Source of the DNA: an uncultured Candidatus Rokubacteria bacterium
GTDB taxonomy: Bacteria; Methylomirabilota; Methylomirabilia; Rokubacteriales; DASRDR01
DNA: 64,000 bases
Direction: 5' to 3'
NCBI GenBank assembly: GCA_963805625.1
Contig: CAWDVE010000010.1
Location: 1,280,001 to 1,344,000, forward strand
The number at the start of each line of letters is the position of its first letter. The stretch's first letter is position 1. Shown here piece by piece: positions 3,352 to 13,495 of this stretch. The notes below the pieces were generated by a model. The model made no database searches. It worked only from the letters and a program-made list of their open reading frames with translations, and was not told the DNA's origin. The position numbers and the translations under genes were made by a program.

Positions 3352-5736
3352 TTGCTCAGGGTCCTCACCGCCGTGTCGCCGGGGTTCCCCTCATTGCGTC
3401 TCCCTGACCGCCTGACCGCGCTGGCCGTCGCCGCCCGCCAGCGGCGCGGCCTCCTGGTGGCGGTCGCTCTCGTCGTCGTCCTGAGTCCTCCGATCGCCTT
3501 CGGGATCTGGACCTGGCGGACCGCGGCCGCCGTCGACCTCTCGCGACTCGAGGATGCCGCTCTCATCTACGCCGCCGGCCAGGTCCTCGCCCCCGGTGTC
3601 TCGATCGAGGCTGTCGACCTTCCCGGCGCGCTCCGCCGCCTGGGGTATCGCGAGACCCAGTCAGCTCCGGCGGCTCCCGGTCAGTTCCGTCGCGAGACGG
3701 CCCTGTGGGAAGTCCACCTCCGGCCGCGCGACGATCCCGGGTCGACCCGTCCGGCCCTGCCGGTCCGGCTCCTGGTGGACGGCGGCCGAATTCGCCAGCT
3801 GATCACGGTCGCGGGCGAGCCGCTGGAGGAGATCGAGCTCGAGCCGGAGACGCTCACCGGACTCGGCGGGACAGCCAACCAGCTCCGGCATCCCGTCGCG
3901 CTCACGGCCGTGCCGAAGCACCTCGTCCAGGCGGTGCTGGCCGCCGAGGATCACCGCTTCTTCGAGCATCCCGGGGTGGATCTCCGCGCCGTGGCGCGCG
4001 CCGTCTGGGTGAACTTCCGCCGTGGCGGGCTCGCCCAGGGGGGGAGCACGCTCACCCAGCAGCTCGTCAAGAACCTCGTGCTCACGCCCAAGCGGACCTG
4101 GGGGCGGAAGGTGCGCGAGGCGGCGCTCGCCCTCGCGCTCGAGCAGCGCTACTCCAAGGACGAGATCCTCTCGGCCTACCTGAACGGCATCTACCTCGGC
4201 CAGCACGGCGGCTTCGCCGTGTACGGCGTCGGCGCGGCGTCGCGCAGCTTCTTCGGCAAGGACATCGAGCGGCTCACGCTCGGCGAGGCCGCCACGCTCG
4301 CGGGGATCATCCGGGCCCCGAACACCTATTCGCCCGTCCAGCATCCCGAGCGCGCGCGCGAGCGGCGGAACGTGGTCCTCCGCCAGATGCGCGACCTGCG
4401 GATGCTCGACGACAAGCGGCTCGCCCAGGCGAGCCAGGAGCGCCTGGTCGTCCAGCGTGGGACCGTGATCAACGCCCTCGGGCCGTACTTCGCGGACTGG
4501 GTGCGGGGGCAGGTCGAGCAGGTTCAGCCGGCCGACGAATCGTCGACGGGCGGCCTCCGGATCTACACGACGCTCAATCCCGTCCTCCAGCGCGCCGCCG
4601 AGGGGGCGCTGGTACGGGGTCTCGACCGCCTGGAGGGCCAGTACCGCGCTCTCCGGCGGAGCGACCCGGGAACGCGGCTCCAGGGAGCGATCGTGGCGCT
4701 CGACGCCCGTACCGGCGAGATTCGCGCGATGGTCGGGGGGCGAGACTACGGGCAGAGCCAGTTCAACCGGGTCGTCCAGGCCCGGCGGCAGCCCGGCTCG
4801 GCCTTCAAGCCGTTCGTCTACCTGGCGGCGCTGGGCCACGGGCCGCGGGGCGAGCCGCCCAACTTCACGCCGGCGTCACTCCTCGAGGATCGGCCGCTCA
4901 CCATCGGCACCGGCCGCAACGCGTGGACCCCGCGCAACTACGAGAACCGGTACGAGGGCACGGTCACGGTGCGCCGTGCGCTCGAGCAGTCGCTGAACGC
5001 CGCGACGGTGTGGATGGCCGAGACCGTTGGCTACGATGCCGTCGTCCGCGCGGCGCGCGAGGCCGGGTTCACGAGCCCGATGGAGCCCGTCCCGGCCCTC
5101 GTCCTCGGAAGCTTCGAGGTGACGCCGATCGAGCTGGCGTCGGCGTTCGCGGCGCTCGCGAGCGGGGGAGAGCGGGTCCGCCCGACCGGACTCCGCGCCG
5201 TGGTGGACCGGGAGGGCGGGGTCAGCGAGCCGCGCACCGATCGGAAGCCGGGGCTAAGGCCGGACGAAGCGTTCCTGGTCACTCACCTGCTGCAGGGCGT
5301 GATCGACCGCGGCACCGGCGCCTCGGCGCGGTCGCTCGGTGTGGAGGGACCCGTCGCCGGGAAGACCGGCACGACGAACGAGGGTCGCGACACGTGGTTC
5401 GTCGGCTACACGCCGCGGCTCGTCGCGCTCGTGTGGGTGGGGTTCGACCAGCGGGACGTGCTCCGCCTCTCGGGCGCGCAGGCCGCGCTCCCGATCTGGG
5501 CCGACTTCATGCGCACCGCCCTCGGCGCGGTGCCGGCCTCCGCCCCCGAGCCGCCGCCCTCGATCACCTTCCGGGAGGTGGATGCGGCCAACGGCAAACT
5601 CGCCACCACCTGGTGCCCGGTCGTCATTCGCGAGGCGTTCCTCGCGTCGACCGAGCCGCGAGACACGTGCCCCGACCACGGCCCGGCCGCCGCGGTCCGC
5701 TCGTTCTTCCGCCGCCTCTTCGACTCGGTCCGGTAG
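3352..5736 (+). CDS. mrcB: Class A penicillin-binding protein, PBP1B-like (UB2H + transglycosylase + transpeptidase)
   Basis: AEDHRFFEH, GGSTLTQQLVKN, RKVRE, SxxK (GSAFKP), SxN (SLN), KTG (GKTGT). UB2H-like segment follows the TM helix. Confidence 0.85.
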   Translation: MLRVLTAVSPGFPSLRLPDRLTALAVAARQRRGLLVAVALVVVLSPPIAFGIWTWRTAAAVDLSRLEDAALIYAAGQVLAPGVSIEAVDLPGALRRLGYRETQSAPAAPGQFRRETALWEVHLRPRDDPGSTRPALPVRLLVDGGRIRQLITVAGEPLEEIELEPETLTGLGGTANQLRHPVALTAVPKHLVQAVLAAEDHRFFEHPGVDLRAVARAVWVNFRRGGLAQGGSTLTQQLVKNLVLTPKRTWGRKVREAALALALEQRYSKDEILSAYLNGIYLGQHGGFAVYGVGAASRSFFGKDIERLTLGEAATLAGIIRAPNTYSPVQHPERARERRNVVLRQMRDLRMLDDKRLAQASQERLVVQRGTVINALGPYFADWVRGQVEQVQPADESSTGGLRIYTTLNPVLQRAAEGALVRGLDRLEGQYRALRRSDPGTRLQGAIVALDARTGEIRAMVGGRDYGQSQFNRVVQARRQPGSAFKPFVYLAALGHGPRGEPPNFTPASLLEDRPLTIGTGRNAWTPRNYENRYEGTVTVRRALEQSLNAATVWMAETVGYDAVVRAAREAGFTSPMEPVPALVLGSFEVTPIELASAFAALASGGERVRPTGLRAVVDREGGVSEPRTDRKPGLRPDEAFLVTHLLQGVIDRGTGASARSLGVEGPVAGKTGTTNEGRDTWFVGYTPRLVALVWVGFDQRDVLRLSGAQAALPIWADFMRTALGAVPASAPEPPPSITFREVDAANGKLATTWCPVVIREAFLASTEPRDTCPDHGPAAAVRSFFRRLFDSVR

Positions 5737-5868
5737 CCCCCCGTCGTCCCTGGCCCGCCCCCCAGGATCCGGAATCGCCCAGCCTCAGGCTCGCTGTTCG
5801 CCACCTGACTCCGCGAGGCCGGCCGGATTGCCTCCACCGTACCTTCCCCGGTACGATACGGACACACC

Positions 5869-6621
5869 ATGCGACTCACCGGCAAGGTCGTTCTGATCAC
5901 CAACGTCGGTCAGTACATGGGTCCGGCGTGCGTCGAGGAATTCGCGAAGGAGGGTGCGATCCTCGCGCTCCACGAGCGGACGGAGGCCCGCGCTCAGTCC
6001 GCCTTCGAGCTGGCGCGTGCCCACGGCCGGGAGGCGACCGTGGTCACGGGCGACCTCACGGTCTCCGGCGAGGCCAACCGGGTGGTGCGCGCGGTGGCGG
6101 AGCGTCATGGGCGGCTCGACGTTCTGATCAACAACTCGAGCCATTCCACGGTCGGGGGGCCGGTCGACGAGGTCTCCGACGAGACCTGGCGGTCCATGGC
6201 AGCTCACCTCTACGACGAGCCCTTCTTCTGCCTTCGCGCGGCGATCCGCGTGATGAAGCGCCAGGGCCACGGCAAGGTCGTGAACATCACCTCGGCGGTG
6301 GCGATCCCGGGGCTGCCGAACTACACTGCGTACTCGGCCGCCCGGGCCGGGACGAACGGTCTCACGCGCGCGGTGGGCCGCGAGGTCGCGCGCCACAACA
6401 TCCAGGTCAACGCGATCGCGCAGAACTTCGTCGAGAACCCCACCTACTTCGGACCCGAGGTCACGGGACAGCCCGAGAGACTCGCCCGCGTCGTCCGCAA
6501 CGTCCCCGCCGGACGTCTCGCGCGGTCGGAGGAGTCTGCGAAGCTGTGCGTCTTCCTCTCGTGCGACGACTCCGACTTCTTCTGCGGCCAGGTGATTCCG
6601 TTCGCGGGCGGCTGGATCTGA
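5869..6621 (+). CDS. Halohydrin dehalogenase (SDR fold, HheB/HheD-like)
   Basis: T-X4-Y-X-G (TNVGQYMG) replaces TGxxxGxG, S-X12-Y-X3-R (SAVAIPGLPNYTAYSAAR) replaces YxxxK, and AQNFVENPTYF is present. Confidence 0.8.
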   Translation: MRLTGKVVLITNVGQYMGPACVEEFAKEGAILALHERTEARAQSAFELARAHGREATVVTGDLTVSGEANRVVRAVAERHGRLDVLINNSSHSTVGGPVDEVSDETWRSMAAHLYDEPFFCLRAAIRVMKRQGHGKVVNITSAVAIPGLPNYTAYSAARAGTNGLTRAVGREVARHNIQVNAIAQNFVENPTYFGPEVTGQPERLARVVRNVPAGRLARSEESAKLCVFLSCDDSDFFCGQVIPFAGGWI

Positions 6622-6643
6622 GCAGCCGACCGCATCGCAGGTC

Positions 6644-7786
6644 ATGACGGATCTCGCCGCCGCTGACCTCTACCAGCGCCTGGGCGGGACTGCGCCGCCC
6701 CGTGTTCTCGACGTCCGCAACGCCGAGGAGTTCGCGCGGTGGCGGGTGGAGGGCCCCCACCCGGTCGATGTGCTGAACGTCCCCTACTTCGAGTTCGTCG
6801 AGCGCGAGGAGGCGTCGGTCAAGAGGGTGACCGACTGGCTGGGCGCCCGTGGAGAGGACCTGGTGGTCGTCTGCGCCGAGGGCGGGTCGTCCGCCTACGT
6901 GGCCGAGATCCTCCAGGGCCGGGGACTTCCCGCCGCCAACCTGGCCGGGGGCATGGTCGCGTGGGGGCTCGGCACCGCGATCCGGCCCATCGCCGCGAGC
7001 GGACCGGCCCGTCTCTGGCAGGCGCTCCGCTTCGGACGGGGGTGCCTCTCGTACGTCGTGGCGCGGGGGGGTGACGCCGTCGTCGTCGACCCGCACCGGG
7101 GACTTGACGCCTACCGCGGGCTCCTCGAGCGCGAGGGGCTCCACCTCCGCGCGGTCTTCGATACTCACCTCCACGCGGACCACGTGTCCGGCGGGCCGGC
7201 GCTCGCCCGTGACGCCGGGGTGGGCTACCACGCGAGCCGGCGCGACTTCGAGGGCGGAACCGTCCCAGTCGAGGGGCTGGTCGACGGCCAGCCCGTGCGG
7301 ATCGGTCGACTCGAGGTCCTCCCCATCGTCCCCCTCGGCACTCCGGGCCACACCCCGGGCAGCACCTCGCTCCTCGTCGCGGACGCGCTCCTACTGACCG
7401 GGGACACCCTCTTCGTCGACGACGTCGGGCGGCCGGACCTCGGCGGCCAGGCGGCGGCGTGGGCGCGGGATCTCCACCGGACGCTCCACGAGCGGCTCCA
7501 GCCGCTCGGCGACGCGATCGTGGTACTCCCGGCCCACGCGAGCACCCTCGCGGCATCCGGGCCGCTCGGCGCCGTGGCCGGCACGCTCGGCGTCCTCCGG
7601 CAGCAGAACCGCGCCATGCGACTCGACCTGGACGCCTTCGTCCGCGAAGCCGAGCATGCCGCGGGCTCGGCCCCCGCCGAGTACGCGAGAATCCGGGCGA
7701 TCAACCTGGGCCGCGAGACGGCCACCGAGGCGGAGCTGACCGAGCTCGAGCTCGGCAAGAACCAGTGCGCGCTGTCGAGGAGGTGA
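6644..7786 (+). CDS. Rhodanese + MBL-fold persulfide dioxygenase-like fusion (YrkH-like)
   Basis: Rhodanese LDVRN...CAEGGSS. MBL THLHADH, PGHTPGS, TGDTLF, GRPDL. C-terminal ELGKNQCA. Confidence 0.85.
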   Translation: MTDLAAADLYQRLGGTAPPRVLDVRNAEEFARWRVEGPHPVDVLNVPYFEFVEREEASVKRVTDWLGARGEDLVVVCAEGGSSAYVAEILQGRGLPAANLAGGMVAWGLGTAIRPIAASGPARLWQALRFGRGCLSYVVARGGDAVVVDPHRGLDAYRGLLEREGLHLRAVFDTHLHADHVSGGPALARDAGVGYHASRRDFEGGTVPVEGLVDGQPVRIGRLEVLPIVPLGTPGHTPGSTSLLVADALLLTGDTLFVDDVGRPDLGGQAAAWARDLHRTLHERLQPLGDAIVVLPAHASTLAASGPLGAVAGTLGVLRQQNRAMRLDLDAFVREAEHAAGSAPAEYARIRAINLGRETATEAELTELELGKNQCALSRR

Positions 7787-7789
7787 CCC

Positions 7790-8038
7790 ATGGCGGACTA
7801 CCGGACGGTGGACGCGCGCGGACTCAAGTGTCCGATGCCGATCGTCAAGGCGAAGAAGGAGATCGACGCCATCCCGGTGGGCGAGGTGCTGCGCGTGATC
7901 GCGACCGACCCCGGCTCCGTGCTGGACTTCCAGGGGTGGATGAAGACCAGCACGAGCTACGAGCTCGTGAAGCAGGAGGAGAGCCAGGACGAGCAGGGCC
8001 GGAAGACATTCGTGCACCTGTTGAGGAGGAAGGCATGA
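7790..8038 (+). CDS. tusA: Sulfurtransferase TusA family protein
   Basis: DARGLKCPMP motif and ATDPGS..D, 82 aa. Confidence 0.85.
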   Translation: MADYRTVDARGLKCPMPIVKAKKEIDAIPVGEVLRVIATDPGSVLDFQGWMKTSTSYELVKQEESQDEQGRKTFVHLLRRKA

Positions 8039-8595
8039 CGACCGCGACGACGTCCGAGCTGGCGATCGACCCCGCGGTTCGCGCGTACGTAGACGAGCGC
8101 CTGGCCGAGTTGCGCGCGCGGCAGCCCGACGACCGGGTCACGCTGGTGGTGTTCTCCGGCGAGCTCGACCGGAACCTCGCCGCTCTCGTCATCGCGACGG
8201 GCGCCGCGGCAATGGGACTCGAGGTCTCGATCTTCTACACCTTCTGGGGGCTCTCCGCCCTCAAGAAACGGCCGACCCTCAAGGGCAAGGGTCTCAAGGA
8301 GAGGCTGTTCACCCTCATGACGCCGAGCCGGTTGAACCGGATGCCCGTCTCCAAGATGAACTTCGGTGGCGCCGGGCGCGTCATGCTCCAGTCGATGATG
8401 CGGGACAAGCAGGTCACCTCCATCGACGAGTTGTTCGACATGGCCCGTCAGCTGGGGGTCAAGCTGATTGCGTGCACGATGTCCATGGACGTGATGGGCA
8501 TCGCCCGAGAGGAGCTGATCGACAACGTGGAGGTCGGTGGCGTCGCAACCTTCCTGGGGGACGCGGCCCGCTCGCGCGTGTCGCTCTTCGTCTGA
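8035..8595 (+). CDS. DsrE/DsrF-like (DsrE2/YrkE-type) sulfur carrier protein
   Basis: ATGA overlap with tusA. FSGELD, IATGAAAMG, FYTFWGL, IACTMSMDVMG, GGVATFL. Confidence 0.85.
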   Translation: MTTATTSELAIDPAVRAYVDERLAELRARQPDDRVTLVVFSGELDRNLAALVIATGAAAMGLEVSIFYTFWGLSALKKRPTLKGKGLKERLFTLMTPSRLNRMPVSKMNFGGAGRVMLQSMMRDKQVTSIDELFDMARQLGVKLIACTMSMDVMGIAREELIDNVEVGGVATFLGDAARSRVSLFV

Positions 8596-8705
8596 GCGGT
8601 TCGTGACCCGGCCCGGAGCCGCCTGAGCGCCAGCCGTGGTCTTCCAGCCGGAGCTGTCCTTGGTCGTCGAGGGTCGCGAGGGTCGAACGCCGTTGCTCCT
8701 TCACC

Positions 8706-9341
8706 GTGCGCCACATCGTCTGCGCCGGCTACACGAGCCGGGACCGGGCGGATGGCGAGCGGCACATCCGGGAGCTCGAGGGCCTTGGCATCGCGCGGCC
8801 GAAGGAGGTGCCAGTCTTCTTCGCCGTCGCCTCCTACCTCGCGACGGTCGAGCAGATCATCGAGGTCCAGGGCCCCTTCACGTCGGGTGAGGCCGAGGTC
8901 GCGCTGGTCCTCGGGCCGGGTGGCCCCTGGGTGACGGTCGCGAGCGACCAGACTGACCGCTTCGTCGAGCGCCACTCCGTGCCTGCCTCGAAGCAGCTCT
9001 GCCCCAAGGTGCTCGCCTCGACCGTCTGGCCCCTGGCCGATGTGGAGGACCACTGGGACGACCTCGAGCTCCGGGCGTGGGTTCGAAGCGGCCGGAAGCG
9101 GCACCTCTACCAGGAGGCCAAGCTGGGAAGCCTCCTCGCGCTGGACACGCTCCTCTTGGGTCTCCGCCGCCGCGTGGGCCGCGCGCTCGACGGCGTGGTC
9201 CTTCTCTCGGGGACGGTGCCGACCGTGGACGGCCAGCTAGTCTATGGCGACGCGTACGAGCTCGAGCTCGCCGACCCGCGACTCGGCCGAGCCATCCGCA
9301 CCCAGTACGCGGTGCGGGTGCTGGAGGGCGGGAAGCGGTGA
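8706..9341 (+). CDS. DUF2848 (FAH-superfamily) protein, possible +1 frameshift near the 5' end
   Basis: AGYTSRD..ERHIRELEGLG, TSGEAE, SDQTDR, SKQLCPK, HWDDL, LYQE. Confidence 0.75.
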   Translation: MRHIVCAGYTSRDRADGERHIRELEGLGIARPKEVPVFFAVASYLATVEQIIEVQGPFTSGEAEVALVLGPGGPWVTVASDQTDRFVERHSVPASKQLCPKVLASTVWPLADVEDHWDDLELRAWVRSGRKRHLYQEAKLGSLLALDTLLLGLRRRVGRALDGVVLLSGTVPTVDGQLVYGDAYELELADPRLGRAIRTQYAVRVLEGGKR

Positions 9342-9521
9342 TGACCCCGCCCCAAGCGTTCGCCGGTGCCCTCCGACCCCCTTCGAGCCCGGGCCCGTCG
9401 ACACCGTGTGTCAATCCGGCGCGCCCCCTCGACCAATTGGGGTGAGATAGCCACCCCCTGGCAAGATAGTCCCGCCTGGCAGGCTTCGATGGCGAGGGCA
9501 AGCAAGGATCGGAGGCCGATA

Positions 9522-9730
9522 ATGAACACTGATTCGGTTCCGCCACCGGAGGTCGAGCACGCGAGGGTCAATGGCGTCGACCGTCCCTATCTTGGATTGC
9601 GGCGAACACCGCCCATCGCTGTATTTCCAAATCGCGACTCATTGTCATTCGCGGAGGAGGGCACCTCGCGCCGGCTGAACATGCCTCGGCATTCAACGAA
9701 GCCCTCCTGAGCTTCCTGAAGACCCTGTGA
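9522..9730 (+). pseudogene. Alpha/beta hydrolase remnant with large internal deletion
   Basis: N-terminus EHARVNGVDRPYL, then in another frame SRLIVIRGGGHLAPAEHASAFNEALLSFLKTL* (catalytic-His region). Confidence 0.6.
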
Positions 9731-9750
9731 CTGGCAGGCCGTCAGCGGCG

Positions 9751-10014
9751 TCACGCCTCCCGGCGGGCGGCGCTGACGAGGCGACGCCAGCGCAGCGCAA
9801 TGATCCAGGTCAGCGCGCCGGCCACCAGCACCTGGCCGATGTCGACCAGGAGGTAGAGCCAGCTCACCGCCAGCTCGCCGCTGATCCAGCTCGCCATCGT
9901 ACCGATCAGAACACTCCCGACGGCGAGGATCCATCCCCGCAGTCGGCCCGACATGAGACAGGCGACGACGAGACCCAGAATGACCCCGAAGCCGACGGGG
10001 AAGACCTCTTCCAT
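9751..10014 (-). CDS. Small hypothetical membrane protein (3 TM)
   Basis: 87-aa hydrophobic ORF with a GAGGAGG SD upstream. Confidence 0.65.
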   Translation of the reverse strand: MEEVFPVGFGVILGLVVACLMSGRLRGWILAVGSVLIGTMASWISGELAVSWLYLLVDIGQVLVAGALTWIIALRWRRLVSAARREA

Positions 10015-10204
10015 GGGAACCTCCTCAAGACATCGGGCTGAGCGGACTCGATGCGCGCGACTCTAGACGGCGGGCTCGGACCTGTCAATCGTGACCTGCC
10101 GGCCGATTGCGGCACCCCACAGCCTCGGCCTATCATCGGCGGCGTGCCGCTCCGAGCCTCGACTCGGAGCGGCAGCCAGACTCTCGGGAAGCGAGGTCAA
10201 CTCG

Positions 10205-13200
10205 ATGGATCCAGCGTGGTCCCAGGGCCTTCGTTGGCGCTGCATCGGCCCGCCCCGGGGCGGCCGCGTGGTGGCCGTCGCCGGGCACCCCACCGAGCCC
10301 ATGGTGTTCTACTTCGGCGCGGTGGCAGGCGGCGTGTGGAAGACGACGGACGGCGGCACCTACTGGGAGAACGTCTCCGACGGCTACTTCCGGACGGCGG
10401 CCATCGGCGCGCTCGCCGTGGCCGAGTCCGATCCCAACGTCATCTACGCCGGGACGGGAGAGGCGACGATCCGGATCGACGTCTCCTACGGCGACGGCGT
10501 GTACAGGACGACCGACGGCGGCAAGACGTGGACCCACGCCGGGCTCGGGGACACGCGCCATATCGGCAAGATCCAGGTCCATCCGAGGGATCCCGACCTC
10601 GTCTACGTCGCCGCGCTCGGCCACGCCTTCGGGCCGAGCCACGAGCGGGGCGTGTTCCGGTCCCGGGACGGCGGCCGTACGTGGCAGCAGATCCTGTTCC
10701 GGAGCGAGCGGGCGGGAGCGATCGATCTCGCCCTCGACCGGACCAATCCTCGCATCCTCTACGCCTCGACGTGGGAGGTGTACCGCCACTTCTGGACGCT
10801 GTCGAGCGGCGGCCCCGATAGCCGGCTCTACAAGTCGGTCGACGGGGGCGATACCTGGGCCGATCTCACCGACAATCCCGGGCTGCCGCTGGGGATCATG
10901 GGAAAGGTCGGCGTCACCGTGTCCCCGGCCCGCCCCGACCGCGTGTGGGCCATCATCGAGGCGGAGAAGGCAGGTCTCTACCGCTCGGATGATGGTGGAC
11001 GGAGCTGGGAGCTCGTCTCCGACAACCGCGACCTGATCCATCGCCCCTGGTATTACTGCCACGTGTTCGCCGATCCGGTGGACCCCGACACCATCTACGT
11101 CACCAACCTGAAGATGTGGAAGTCGACTGACGGCGGGCGCACGTTCACGGAGATCACGACGCCCCACGGTGACAATCACGACCTCTGGATCGATCCTCGG
11201 GACCCCCGCCGGATGATCGAGGGCAACGACGGCGGCGCCTGCGTCTCGTTCAACGGCGGCCAGAGCTGGTCGACGATCTACAACCAGCTCACCGCGCAGT
11301 TCTACCACGTGGCGATCGACGACCAGCATCCCTACCGCGTCTACGGCACCCAGCAGGACAACTCGAGCGTGAGCGTGCCGAGTGCTTCGGAGAACGGGGG
11401 TATCACTTGGGGTAACTGCGACCCCGCGGGCACCGGGGAGAGCGGGTACATCGCGGTCGATCCTCGCGATCCGAACGTGGTGTACGTCGGCGCGGTGGGG
11501 AGCTCGCCGGGCGGCGGGGGCGCCCTCCAGCGCTACGACCACCGGACACGCCAGATCCGGCTGGTGACAGTCTGGCCCGAGGTCTACTACGGCTGGGGCG
11601 CCAAGGACTTGAAGTACCGGTTCGCCTGGACCTTCCCCATCGTCTTCTCGCCTCACGACCCCGGCACGCTCTACGCCACCGGGAATCTCGTCTTCCGGAC
11701 GCGGGACGAGGGATCGAGCTGGGAGGCGATCAGCCCCGACCTCACCCGGCAGGACCTGACCAAGCTCGAGGCGTCCGGCGGCCCGCTCACCAAGGACACG
11801 AGCGGGGCCGAGCACTACGGCACGGTGTACGCCTTCGCGGAGTCGCCTCGGGAGCGCGGCGTGCTGTGGGCGGGGAGCGACGACGGCCTGATTCACGTCT
11901 CCCGGGACGACGGCCTCACCTGGCAGAACGTGACGCCGCCCGACCTGCCCGAGTGGTCGCTGATCGCGACGATCGAGCCTTCGACCCATGCCTCGGGCGC
12001 GGTCTACCTCGCGGCCACGCGCTACAAGGTCGACGACTACCGCGCCTACCTCTACAAGACCGAGGACTACGGCCGAACCTGGCGGAATCTCGCCGCGGGG
12101 TTTCCGCCCGGGGAGATCAGCCGCGTGATCCGGGAAGACGCCGTCCGGCCCGGTCTCCTCTACGTCGGAACGGAGACGGGCATCGCGGTCTCCTGGGATG
12201 ACGGCGGAACGTGGCACAGATGTCCGTGGAACCTGCCGGTGAGTCCCGTGTACGACCTCGCGATCAAGGGCAGCGATCTCGTGGCGGCGACCCACGGGCG
12301 CTCCTTCTGGGTCCTGGACGACCTCACTCCCCTGCGCGCGCTGACAGCCGAGGTCACCGCCGCGGTCGCGCACCTCTTCCCGCCCCGGGCGACGGTGCGT
12401 CCGTGGCAGAACTGGAGCGTCGACCTCTTCCGGGGCCCCGGCAAGACCTACAAGAACTACATGATGGCGCTCGGGACCGGGCTCACGTTCTACGAGGAGC
12501 GGACGCCCGAGGGCGAGCGCGTGCGCACGTTCCTTGACGCCGGGGAGAACCCCCCGGTCGGCGCCATCGTCTACTACGCCCTGGGCGAGGCGACGGGGGG
12601 GCCTGTCTCCCTGACGTTCCTCGACGACAAGGGCGCGGTGATCCGCACGTTCACGACGAAGCCGGAGACGCCGCCGGCCGCCAACGCCGGGGCGGCCGCG
12701 GGGACCGCCAGCCCGGCCGCTCTGACCCCGCCGCCGGACGAGCGCTACATCACGGCCAGGCCCGGTCTCAACCGCTTCGTGTGGGACCTCCGCTACCCCG
12801 GCGCGGAGAGGGTACCGGGCGATGTCTCGACCGAGAAGGCGATCACCGGGCCGCTCGCGCCGCCGGGCCGCTACCAGGTCCGCCTCACGGTGGGTGACCG
12901 GTCGTGGACCCAGCCGCTCGAGGTGAGGAAGGACCCGCGCGTCTCCGCCACCCAGGGGGAGCTCGACGCGCAGTTCGCACTGTGGCGCCAGATCCGCGAC
13001 ACCCTGTCGGAGACGCACGCCGGGATCAACCAGCTGCGGCGGATTCGCCGCCAGGTCAGCGACTGGTCCCAGCGCCTCCGCGAGTCACCTCCTTCTGACG
13101 CGTCCTCCCCAATTCGGGGCGCGGGCTCTGGCGGACCTCGACCGCCTGGCCGAGAGGGTTCCGGCGTCGTGCGGTCCGGGGTCATCGCCGAGGCGGCCGA

Positions 13201-13495
13201 TCGACTCCTGGCAAAGCTCACCGAGATCGAGACCGAGCTGATCCAGACCTCGGCCCGGAACTCGATGGACGCCCTTCGGCTGCCCGCGCGCTTGAATCTC
13301 CGTCTCGCCTCCCTGGTCAGTGTGCTATCGAGCGCCGACGCGGCGCCTCCCCGGCAGGCGTTCCTGGTCTACGAGCATCTCGCCGGCCTAGCCCGTCGGG
13401 AGCTGGGCCGGCTCGAGGCGCTCATCGAAACCGACGTGGTCGAATTCAACACCCTGGTGCGCGAGGCCAACCTGCCAGCGATCGCAACTCGATAG
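10205..13495 (+). CDS. BNR/Asp-box (VPS10/sortilin-like) beta-propeller glycosyl hydrolase-like protein
   Basis: WRCIGPPRGGR, repeated (S/T)xDGGxTW Asp-boxes, HGDNHDLWIDP, ATHGRSFW. GAGG SD before ATG 10205. Confidence 0.85.
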   Translation: MDPAWSQGLRWRCIGPPRGGRVVAVAGHPTEPMVFYFGAVAGGVWKTTDGGTYWENVSDGYFRTAAIGALAVAESDPNVIYAGTGEATIRIDVSYGDGVYRTTDGGKTWTHAGLGDTRHIGKIQVHPRDPDLVYVAALGHAFGPSHERGVFRSRDGGRTWQQILFRSERAGAIDLALDRTNPRILYASTWEVYRHFWTLSSGGPDSRLYKSVDGGDTWADLTDNPGLPLGIMGKVGVTVSPARPDRVWAIIEAEKAGLYRSDDGGRSWELVSDNRDLIHRPWYYCHVFADPVDPDTIYVTNLKMWKSTDGGRTFTEITTPHGDNHDLWIDPRDPRRMIEGNDGGACVSFNGGQSWSTIYNQLTAQFYHVAIDDQHPYRVYGTQQDNSSVSVPSASENGGITWGNCDPAGTGESGYIAVDPRDPNVVYVGAVGSSPGGGGALQRYDHRTRQIRLVTVWPEVYYGWGAKDLKYRFAWTFPIVFSPHDPGTLYATGNLVFRTRDEGSSWEAISPDLTRQDLTKLEASGGPLTKDTSGAEHYGTVYAFAESPRERGVLWAGSDDGLIHVSRDDGLTWQNVTPPDLPEWSLIATIEPSTHASGAVYLAATRYKVDDYRAYLYKTEDYGRTWRNLAAGFPPGEISRVIREDAVRPGLLYVGTETGIAVSWDDGGTWHRCPWNLPVSPVYDLAIKGSDLVAATHGRSFWVLDDLTPLRALTAEVTAAVAHLFPPRATVRPWQNWSVDLFRGPGKTYKNYMMALGTGLTFYEERTPEGERVRTFLDAGENPPVGAIVYYALGEATGGPVSLTFLDDKGAVIRTFTTKPETPPAANAGAAAGTASPAALTPPPDERYITARPGLNRFVWDLRYPGAERVPGDVSTEKAITGPLAPPGRYQVRLTVGDRSWTQPLEVRKDPRVSATQGELDAQFALWRQIRDTLSETHAGINQLRRIRRQVSDWSQRLRESPPSDASSPIRGAGSGGPRPPGREGSGVVRSGVIAEAADRLLAKLTEIETELIQTSARNSMDALRLPARLNLRLASLVSVLSSADAAPPRQAFLVYEHLAGLARRELGRLEALIETDVVEFNTLVREANLPAIATR

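What the first reader, a model, noticed from the sequence alone, without database searches (positions are those of the whole stretch)
5869..6621. Halohydrin dehalogenase hidden as an ordinary SDR
Seen: TNVGQYMG and S-X12-Y-X3-R (SAVAIPGLPNYTAYSAAR), plus QNFVENPTYF. Established: halohydrin dehalogenases differ from SDRs by T-X4-(F/Y)-X-G in place of the Rossmann TGxxxGxG and by a Ser-Tyr-Arg triad in place of Ser-Tyr-Lys. They are cofactor-free, rare and valued biocatalysts. Inference: a B/D-type-like enzyme from a probably uncultured lineage that pipelines would call 'SDR'.
Basis: partly seen in the sequence, partly recalled or inferred. Interest (0 to 1): 0.7.

Follow-up and report, generated by a model that had tools for sequence, protein, structure and literature searches.

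The report
Unclassified halohydrin dehalogenase lineage in Rokubacteria
This gene, which databases label as an ordinary dehydrogenase, carries both sequence fingerprints of halohydrin dehalogenases and likely encodes such a cofactor-free epoxide-forming enzyme, from a conserved branch in uncultured Rokubacteria that looks closer to dehydrogenases than the other branches compared, so it may help show how these biocatalysts arose and what they do in nature.

Summary
Window 5869-6621 (+) is an intact 250-aa ORF. It has T11-x4-Y16-x-G18 and S142-x12-Y155-x3-R159, the two published halohydrin dehalogenase (HHDH) motifs. It is the only one of 74 SDR-like frames in its genome with either motif, and 117 of 121 proteins (query plus top homologues) have both. 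Its best solved relatives by sequence are dehalogenases, and trees put it on the HHDH side of the SDR/HHDH split. HHDH-type chemistry is likely (0.85) but untested.

The "B/D-type" label is not supported as membership. The protein lacks the 27-residue deletion of B/D-like enzymes. It belongs to a separate clade, outside the B/D-, A/C- and G-like clades; E and F could not be tested. The clade is single-copy, under purifying selection, and found in 45 of 170 genomes of the phylum, including 14 of 14 in its own family. It scores closer to ordinary SDRs (Pfam PF00106 122-140 bits) than the A/C-, B/D- and G-like groups do (47-98), and has the shortest branches. The window has no epoxide hydrolase beside it.

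Verdict: a new variant (candidate new subtype) of a known enzyme family, and perhaps its least-changed lineage.

The parts
5869..6621 (+). ORF for a 250-aa halohydrin-dehalogenase-type protein of the SDR fold (P0001)
5899..5922 (+). HHDH motif 1, T11-N-V-G-Q-Y16-M-G18, in place of the glycine-rich NAD(P)-binding loop; Y16 is predicted to line the halide/nucleophile pocket
   Evidence: sequence; definition in PMC11976700; conservation and controls
5980..6051 (+). Rossmann segment (about residues 38-61, helix plus third strand) kept at SDR length; missing in B/D-like enzymes
   Evidence: alignment; spacing 131 vs 103-104; secondary structure of the model
6052..6057 (+). D62-L63, the Asp-hydrophobic pair also seen in SDRs and G-like proteins (adenine-side role in SDRs recalled)
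6130..6135 (+). N88-N89, kept from the SDR N-N-A-G stretch whose Ala-Gly is replaced
6208..6210 (+). L114, replacing the Asn that most SDRs have at this column (equated from recall with the Asn of the Asn-Ser-Tyr-Lys tetrad)
   Evidence: Leu in 9 of 9 clade rows, Asn in 11 of 14 SDR rows; tetrad named in PMC2792337
6292..6345 (+). HHDH motif 2, catalytic triad S142, Y155, R159
   Evidence: sequence; invariant in 115 aligned homologues
6421..6450 (+). Q185-N186...Y193-F194 loop, predicted nucleophile-binding loop, replacing SDR P-G
   Evidence: alignments to 8XXB and 7B73; geometry not resolved in the model (pLDDT <50 at 187-193)

Best explanation
The gene encodes an SDR-fold protein with both halohydrin dehalogenase motifs that likely works as a cofactor-free lyase, predicted to close vicinal haloalcohols to epoxides and to open epoxides with small anions. 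By homology (inferred), Ser142 holds the substrate hydroxyl and Tyr155, activated by Arg159, removes its proton. The alkoxide then displaces the halide into a pocket lined by Tyr16 and the 185-194 loop, which occupy the space where SDRs bind the cofactor. It belongs to a separate, slowly evolving clade, apparently inherited vertically in Rokubacteriales, not to the B/D subtypes. Its natural substrate is not identified. Its steady retention without a partner epoxide hydrolase suggests a routine natural substrate rather than a man-made pollutant (inference).
For: Both motifs sit at homologous positions. The review PMC4989007 reports that motif-based mining gave confirmed activity for a selection of 19 enzymes (passage). 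Further columns side with HHDH-type proteins: N186 is Gly in 13 of 14 SDR rows but Asn in 9/9 G-like, 11/11 A/C-like and 8/12 B/D-like rows; Y193/F194 are aromatic; W249 is kept. The best PDB sequence hits are 6A41 'dehalogenase', 8XXB (HheD8 study), HheB 4ZD6/5B12, and with a profile 8XXB, 6A41, 7B73. Trees separate 14 SDRs from all 47 triad-Arg proteins (100/98; 98/98). The clade has 98/91 support and groups with A/C- and B/D-like proteins to the exclusion of G (87/92; 93/96 under LG+G4). Purifying selection. Single copy without internal stops in 45 of 170 genomes.
Against: No activity data for any member. Structure searches with the model (pLDDT 84) rank ordinary NAD(P)-dependent SDRs first. 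Foldseek puts HheG at rank 10 and 6A41 at rank 19, and no HHDH is among the 50 entries shown by VIA-align. The active-site loops 144-148 and 187-193 are unresolved, so the pocket was not seen. An AU test does not reject placing the clade next to SDRs, outside all HHDH-type groups (p=0.34), so bracketing by verified enzymes is not firm. It keeps SDR features (D62-L63, N88-N89, and an acidic residue after strand 2 in 8 of 9 rows). Identity to its best HHDH-type proxies is only 33-45%, against 36% to the best SDR in the tree. The ESM Atlas neighbours are all named as SDRs/oxidoreductases.
Confidence: 0.85

Rival explanations
1. It uses the same Ser-Tyr-Arg acid-base chemistry without cofactor, but on a specific cellular metabolite (for example a natural epoxide or another ring closure or elimination), and would be inactive on standard haloalcohols.
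For: Strong conservation (mean column identity 74% over 115 homologues). Mostly all-or-none presence by genus. No epoxide hydrolase next to it in the window; the genome's one EHN-family match is on another contig. Neighbours change between families. The review says HHDHs may have other physiological functions.
Against: The same review reports activity for the 19 diverse motif-selected enzymes tested, most of them also without a linked epoxide hydrolase. The pocket aromatics are conserved. No neighbour points to a particular metabolite.
Confidence: 0.09
2. It is an atypical but still NAD(P)-dependent SDR oxidoreductase, as the databases name it.
For: Database names. Structure searches rank SDRs first. 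SDR-length Rossmann half and the highest Pfam SDR scores among triad-Arg proteins. AU p=0.34 for grouping with SDRs.
Against: The two glycines of the cofactor loop are Asn/His (12) and Tyr/Phe (16). Lys is Arg, P-G is Q-N, and the SDR Asn column is Leu in 9 of 9 clade rows. G-like proteins close to HheG also keep D62-L63 and a long N-half, so these features do not imply cofactor use. Pfam scores remain well below true SDRs (122-140 vs 183-212 bits).
Confidence: 0.04
3. It is a halohydrin dehalogenase, but simply a member of an already named subtype (B/D, or E or F). This rival concerns classification and is compatible with the best explanation's chemistry.
For: The C-terminal half matches D-type structures best. 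Its highest identity among named-type proxies is to B/D-like (45%). R+B/D as sister groups is not rejected. No E or F reference sequence could be fetched.
Against: No 27-residue deletion. The B/D-like group is monophyletic without it. The listed E and F members come from marine metagenomes, a gammaproteobacterium and an uncultured bacterium, and no gammaproteobacterial title is among the 56 clade loci.
Confidence: 0.15

Closest known systems
D-type HHDHs (PDB 8XXB, HheD8 study; 7B73, recalled as HheD2)
   Same: Both motifs; near-identical N-A-I-A-Q-N-F-V-[ED]-N-P-T-Y-F loop; 8XXB is the best profile hit (178 bits), 7B73 third (170 bits).
   Different: D-like proteins are about 225-230 aa with a 27-residue N-terminal deletion and form a separate clade.
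HheB (PDB 4ZD6)
   Same: T-N-x3-Y-M-G motif 1 and Ser-Tyr-Arg triad; E=6e-35.
   Different: Same deletion as D-types; the loop reads Q-H-W rather than Q-N-F.
PDB 6A41 'Dehalogenation enzyme' and A/C-type HHDHs
   Same: 6A41 is the best single-sequence hit over the full length (136 bits). It shares T-N-V in motif 1, H-D/E after strand 2, a P-F at 118-119 and N-Y at 151-152.
   Different: 31% identity to 6A41. A/C-like proteins use P-N in the loop, have a shortened and degenerate strand-3 region, and form their own clade. HheA and HheC are not among the top 60 hits. No paper on 6A41 was found.
G-type HHDHs (HheG 5O30; 7WKQ; AbHheG 8HQP)
   Same: Long N-terminal half with D-L kept; best-ranked HHDH in Foldseek.
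   Different: 32-33% identity; G-T-N-Y-M-D-F loop; HheG-like rows keep the Asn at column 114 and a longer N-terminal loop (spacing 138-139); separate long branch.
Classical SDRs (FabG-like, Pfam PF00106/PF13561)
   Same: Fold, length and motif spacing (128-132 vs 131); D62, N88-N89.
   Different: No T-G-x3-G-x-G, no Tyr-x3-Lys, no P-G, no Asn at column 114.

Membership tests
Halohydrin dehalogenases | Motif 1 T-x4-F/Y-x-G at the N-terminus | tested here: met
   T11, Y16, G18; definition
Halohydrin dehalogenases | Motif 2 S-x12-Y-x3-R (catalytic triad) | tested here: met
   S142, Y155, R159 invariant in 115 aligned homologues
Halohydrin dehalogenases | SDR Rossmann fold | tested here: met
   Model pLDDT 84; TM 0.85 to HheG 5O30, 0.84 to 6A41
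Halohydrin dehalogenases | Groups with HHDHs, apart from SDRs | tested here: met
   SDR vs triad-Arg split 100/98. References are proxies tied to PDB entries. Its order of branching relative to G is not fixed.
Halohydrin dehalogenases | Nucleophile pocket in place of the cofactor site (3D) | tested here: inconclusive
   Pocket residues conserved in sequence, but loops 144-148 and 187-193 have pLDDT <50 and structure searches do not single out HHDHs
Halohydrin dehalogenases | Cofactor-free dehalogenation and epoxide opening | not testable with these tools
   needs an assay
Halohydrin dehalogenases | Homotetramer | not tested
   No complex prediction run; it would not separate HHDHs from tetrameric SDRs
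B/D subtypes | Falls inside the B/D clade | tested here: not met
   12 B/D-like rows form a clade without it (100/99; 99/99); sisterhood not rejected
B/D subtypes | Short N-terminal half (motif spacing 103-104; feature observed here in proxies and in 4ZD6, 8XXB, 7B73 alignments, not a published criterion) | tested here: not met
   spacing 131
A/C subtypes | Falls inside the A/C-like clade | tested here: not met
   11 proxies form a clade without it (98/100). Only 2 proxies were tied to PDB A/C entries, and loosely.
G subtype | Falls inside the G clade | tested here: not met
   G clade 100/100 without it; L134 scores 426 bits against HheG
E and F subtypes | Falls inside the E or F clade | not testable with these tools
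   Only accession numbers seen; no sequence could be fetched; defining paper not held
Classical NAD(P)-dependent SDR | T-G/A-x3-G/A-x-G cofactor loop | tested here: not met
   N12 and Y16 replace the glycines
Classical NAD(P)-dependent SDR | S-x10-14-Y-x3-K | tested here: not met
   R159

The most novel reading that the evidence does not exclude
This Rokubacteriales clade is an unnamed subtype and the least-changed living lineage of the SDR-to-HHDH transition. It has the full HHDH active site on an almost intact SDR scaffold, kept as a single-copy gene for a natural, non-pollutant substrate. It may still bind the adenine end of a nucleotide. It would be the natural system in which to find the native job of HHDHs and the minimal changes that turned a dehydrogenase into a cofactor-free lyase.
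Probability: 0.3. Interest if true: 0.7.

Novelty: new variant of a known kind. Interest (0 to 1): 0.5.

Why it matters
HHDHs are sought-after biocatalysts whose substrate range differs strongly between subtypes, and new ones are wanted (PMC10099379, passage). A clade 45% or less identical to the named-subtype proxies, with well over a hundred natural variants already in hand, is fresh screening material. The natural role of HHDHs is an open question (PMC4989007). A vertically kept single-copy lineage, intermediate between SDRs and the other HHDH groups, makes both the native function and the origin of the family easier to test. Against this, finding HHDHs by these two motifs has been routine since 2014, so the bare identification is not surprising.

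Tried and rejected
1. A single-sequence fold failed (pLDDT 37.5) and was replaced by an alignment-based model.
2. Structure searches did not discriminate HHDH from SDR.
3. Plasmid searches gave one HHDH-like gene only: Novosphingobium resinovorum pSA2, beside an epoxide hydrolase, used as a B/D-like proxy.
4. Expression is not shown. One metatranscriptome contig of 172 nt matches 5904-6075 with 1 difference. The other runs are of uncertain kind or cover the whole stretch like DNA, and no silent control stretch was laid.
5. The promoter/terminator scan of 5600-9800 found 0 sites, as in shuffles.
6. A functional link to the downstream rhodanese-MBL/TusA/DsrE2 genes (for example via thiocyanate) was considered and set aside: TusA is present in only 8 of 18 closest loci, and this arrangement was not among the recurring neighbours of the other family.
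7. A link between the coupled YciI gene and YciI-family dehydrochlorinases (TftG, recalled) found no PDB support (best E=0.3, unrelated).
8. D62-L63 was rejected as a discriminator against B/D: it aligns to a gap but to D-L.
9. Between-group identities with SDR, A/C-like and B/D-like rows are biased because those rows were chosen as best hits of the query. The Pfam scores were added as a yardstick that does not use the query.
10. Literature: 'halohydrin dehalogenase'+'Rokubacteria' gave 0 papers. In a two-of-five-term search none of the 25 listed (of 74) mixed enzyme and taxon terms. '6A41' gave 0. 'Roku' and 'Methylomirabil' gave 0 in the readable supplements of three HHDH papers; one file was unreadable and an enzyme-library table was not seen. 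Most HHDH papers are in subscription journals that are not held, so prior use of a member cannot be excluded.
11. Earlier scan findings: none returned.

Full report
Observation. The window holds an intact ORF at 5869-6621 (+), 250 aa, with a coding-type GC pattern and dN/dS of 0.06-0.18 against 11 close loci. The published HHDH fingerprints are T-X4-F/Y-X-G and S-X12-Y-X3-R, against T-G/A-X3-G/A-X-G and S-X10-14-Y-X3-K in SDRs (PMC11976700, abstract and introduction read; PMC4989007, passages). As a control, of 74 SDR-like frames in this genome only this one has either HHDH motif, and only 2 of 22,968 long frames show the motif pair at all. Among the query and its 120 best homologues, 117 of 121 have both motifs; the 4 misses are short sequences that still have motif 2. 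All source names shown are SDR-type.

What it is. By sequence the best solved relatives are 6A41 ('dehalogenase'), 8XXB, HheB (4ZD6, 5B12), then an SDR (7SUB) and 7B73. A profile of 115 homologues gives 8XXB, 6A41, 7B73 first. 8XXB comes from the HheD8 study (supplement passage of PMC11782660); 7B73 as HheD2 is recalled. Named reference sequences could not be fetched, so I used proxies. From the 150 best 50%-cluster representatives I kept the 23 near-full-length proteins with an Arg triad (fragments and close clade members left out) and added a Novosphingobium plasmid protein and five genome loci. Nine G-like proteins were taken from the 120 stretches of a motif scan. Proxies were tied to PDB entries: P0206 scores 332 bits to 7B73, P0138 175-184 bits to B and D, P0226 and P0232 104-196 bits to 6A41/A/C, and L134 426 bits to HheG. 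With 9 clade members and 14 of 74 SDR representatives, both models gave the same groups. Under the mixture model: SDRs apart 100/98, G-like 100/100, A/C-like 98/100, B/D-like 99/99, this clade 98/91. This clade, A/C-like, B/D-like and a small unnamed group join to the exclusion of G at 87/92 (93/96), unresolved inside. AU tests rejected neither sisterhood with B/D (p=0.21) nor a position next to the SDRs (p=0.34). So it is a separate HHDH-side lineage whose exact branching point is open. E and F were not represented.

Anatomy. Column by column the clade has the HHDH-type states at 11/16/18, 142/155/159, N186, Y193/F194 and W249, and Leu where 11 of 14 SDRs have Asn (column 114). It keeps SDR-type spacing between the motifs: 131, against SDRs 128-132, B/D-like 103-104, A/C-like mostly 117-130 and G-like 127-139. 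It also keeps D62-L63 and N88-N89. On Pfam PF00106, SDRs score 183-212 bits (6 rows), this clade 122-140 (7), the unnamed group 100-120 (4), G-like 73-98 (9), B/D-like 65-98 (9) and A/C-like 47-92 (11). Its distance from the common HHDH node is 0.61 changes per site against 1.2-1.6 for the other groups (LG+G4 tree). It is therefore the most SDR-like of the groups compared. This fits the structure searches, which rank ordinary SDRs first, a result that gives no support to the HHDH reading. The model leaves the two active-site loops unresolved.

Distribution and context. 43 of the 56 closest genome loci are titled Rokubacteria/Methylomirabilota, 4 'uncultured bacterium' and 9 other taxa; 54 of 56 show both motifs in one frame. 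In the window's phylum (genomes at least 85% complete) 45 of 170 have one copy: own family 14 of 14 besides this genome, a second family of the same order 30 of 108, and nine other families 0 of 47. Only 16 candidates per genome were scored, so 'not found' is not absence. Presence is mostly all-or-none by genus, as expected for inheritance with losses. Neighbours differ by family. In the 18 closest loci a PBP1b-like gene is matched in 15 and DUF2848 in 13, and the rhodanese-MBL/TusA/DsrE2 block comes and goes (TusA in 8). In the other 38 loci a divergent DEAD-box helicase was clustered in 38 and a YciI-domain gene is present in 34, starting within 9 bases of the match end in 21. An alpha/beta hydrolase lies 2-3 kb downstream in 4 of 56. 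In this genome the only EHN-family epoxide hydrolase and the YciI homologue are on other contigs. Context thus gives no pathway. The review notes that only two HHDH genes then known sat with an epoxide hydrolase.

Mechanism. Shown: sequence features, conservation, tree position. Taken from the family (PMC4989007 and PMC2792337, passages) and inferred for this protein: Ser binds the substrate hydroxyl, Tyr deprotonates it with help from Arg, the alkoxide displaces the halide into a pocket formed by motif 1 and backbone amides, and the reverse reaction accepts other anions. I put 0.85 on measurable HHDH activity. The native substrate is not identified. Steady single-copy retention suggests a natural compound, which is inference only.

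Comparison and novelty. It works like an HHDH and meets both sequence criteria for membership. It fails the tests for B/D, A/C and G as run with proxies, and E/F are untested. No held paper links HHDHs with Rokubacteria. A metagenomic study assigns other dehalogenase types to them (PMC10385969, passages). A 2022 re-mining reported only a new G member (PMC10099379, passages and supplement passages). PMC13434774 and PMC8328376 were seen as supplement searches only. Table S1 of PMC4989007 was read whole and names no Rokubacteria. The 2014 defining paper and most subscription papers were not available, and unseen enzyme-library tables could contain a member.

Verdict. Real feature; likely halohydrin dehalogenase; not a B/D member but a distinct, conserved, SDR-like lineage. 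New variant of a known kind, interest 0.5.

Noticed in passing
window 6644-8595 (+): Rhodanese-metallo-beta-lactamase fusion, TusA and DsrE2-like genes follow the ORF after 22 bases: a sulfur-transfer block present whole in about 8 of the 18 closest loci and partly lost in others.
   Followed up: partly
window 8706-9341 (+): DUF2848 gene; lies close behind the HHDH gene in relatives that lack the sulfur block, and is matched in 13 of 18 closest loci.
   Followed up: partly
L055:5756-6289 (+): 178-aa YciI-domain gene overlapping the stop codon of the HHDH-type gene in the second family; present in 34 of 38 loci. Possible functional partner; no PDB relative found by sequence.
   Followed up: partly
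P0126, P0132, P0145, L091, L093: A further clade (99/99) with Tyr-x3-Arg and the Q-N loop but mostly a non-aromatic residue at the motif-1 aromatic position, so standard motif mining would miss it.
   Followed up: partly
   Followed up: no
L036:296-2169 (NZ_CP017077.1): Novosphingobium plasmid gene annotated 'SDR' with HHDH-type motifs (Ser variant of motif 1) directly after an epoxide hydrolase gene.
   Followed up: partly
L058, L060, L062, L066, L070, L076, L086, L087, L094: Records titled with other taxa (including two archaeal names) carry the same gene with the same helicase and YciI neighbours, suggesting mislabelled or mis-binned records rather than transfer.
   Followed up: no
L053, L092: Single frameshifts inside the gene in two assemblies; assembly error or real loss not determined.
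   Followed up: no
window 10091-13495 (+): 1134-aa BNR/Vps10-repeat protein.
   Followed up: no
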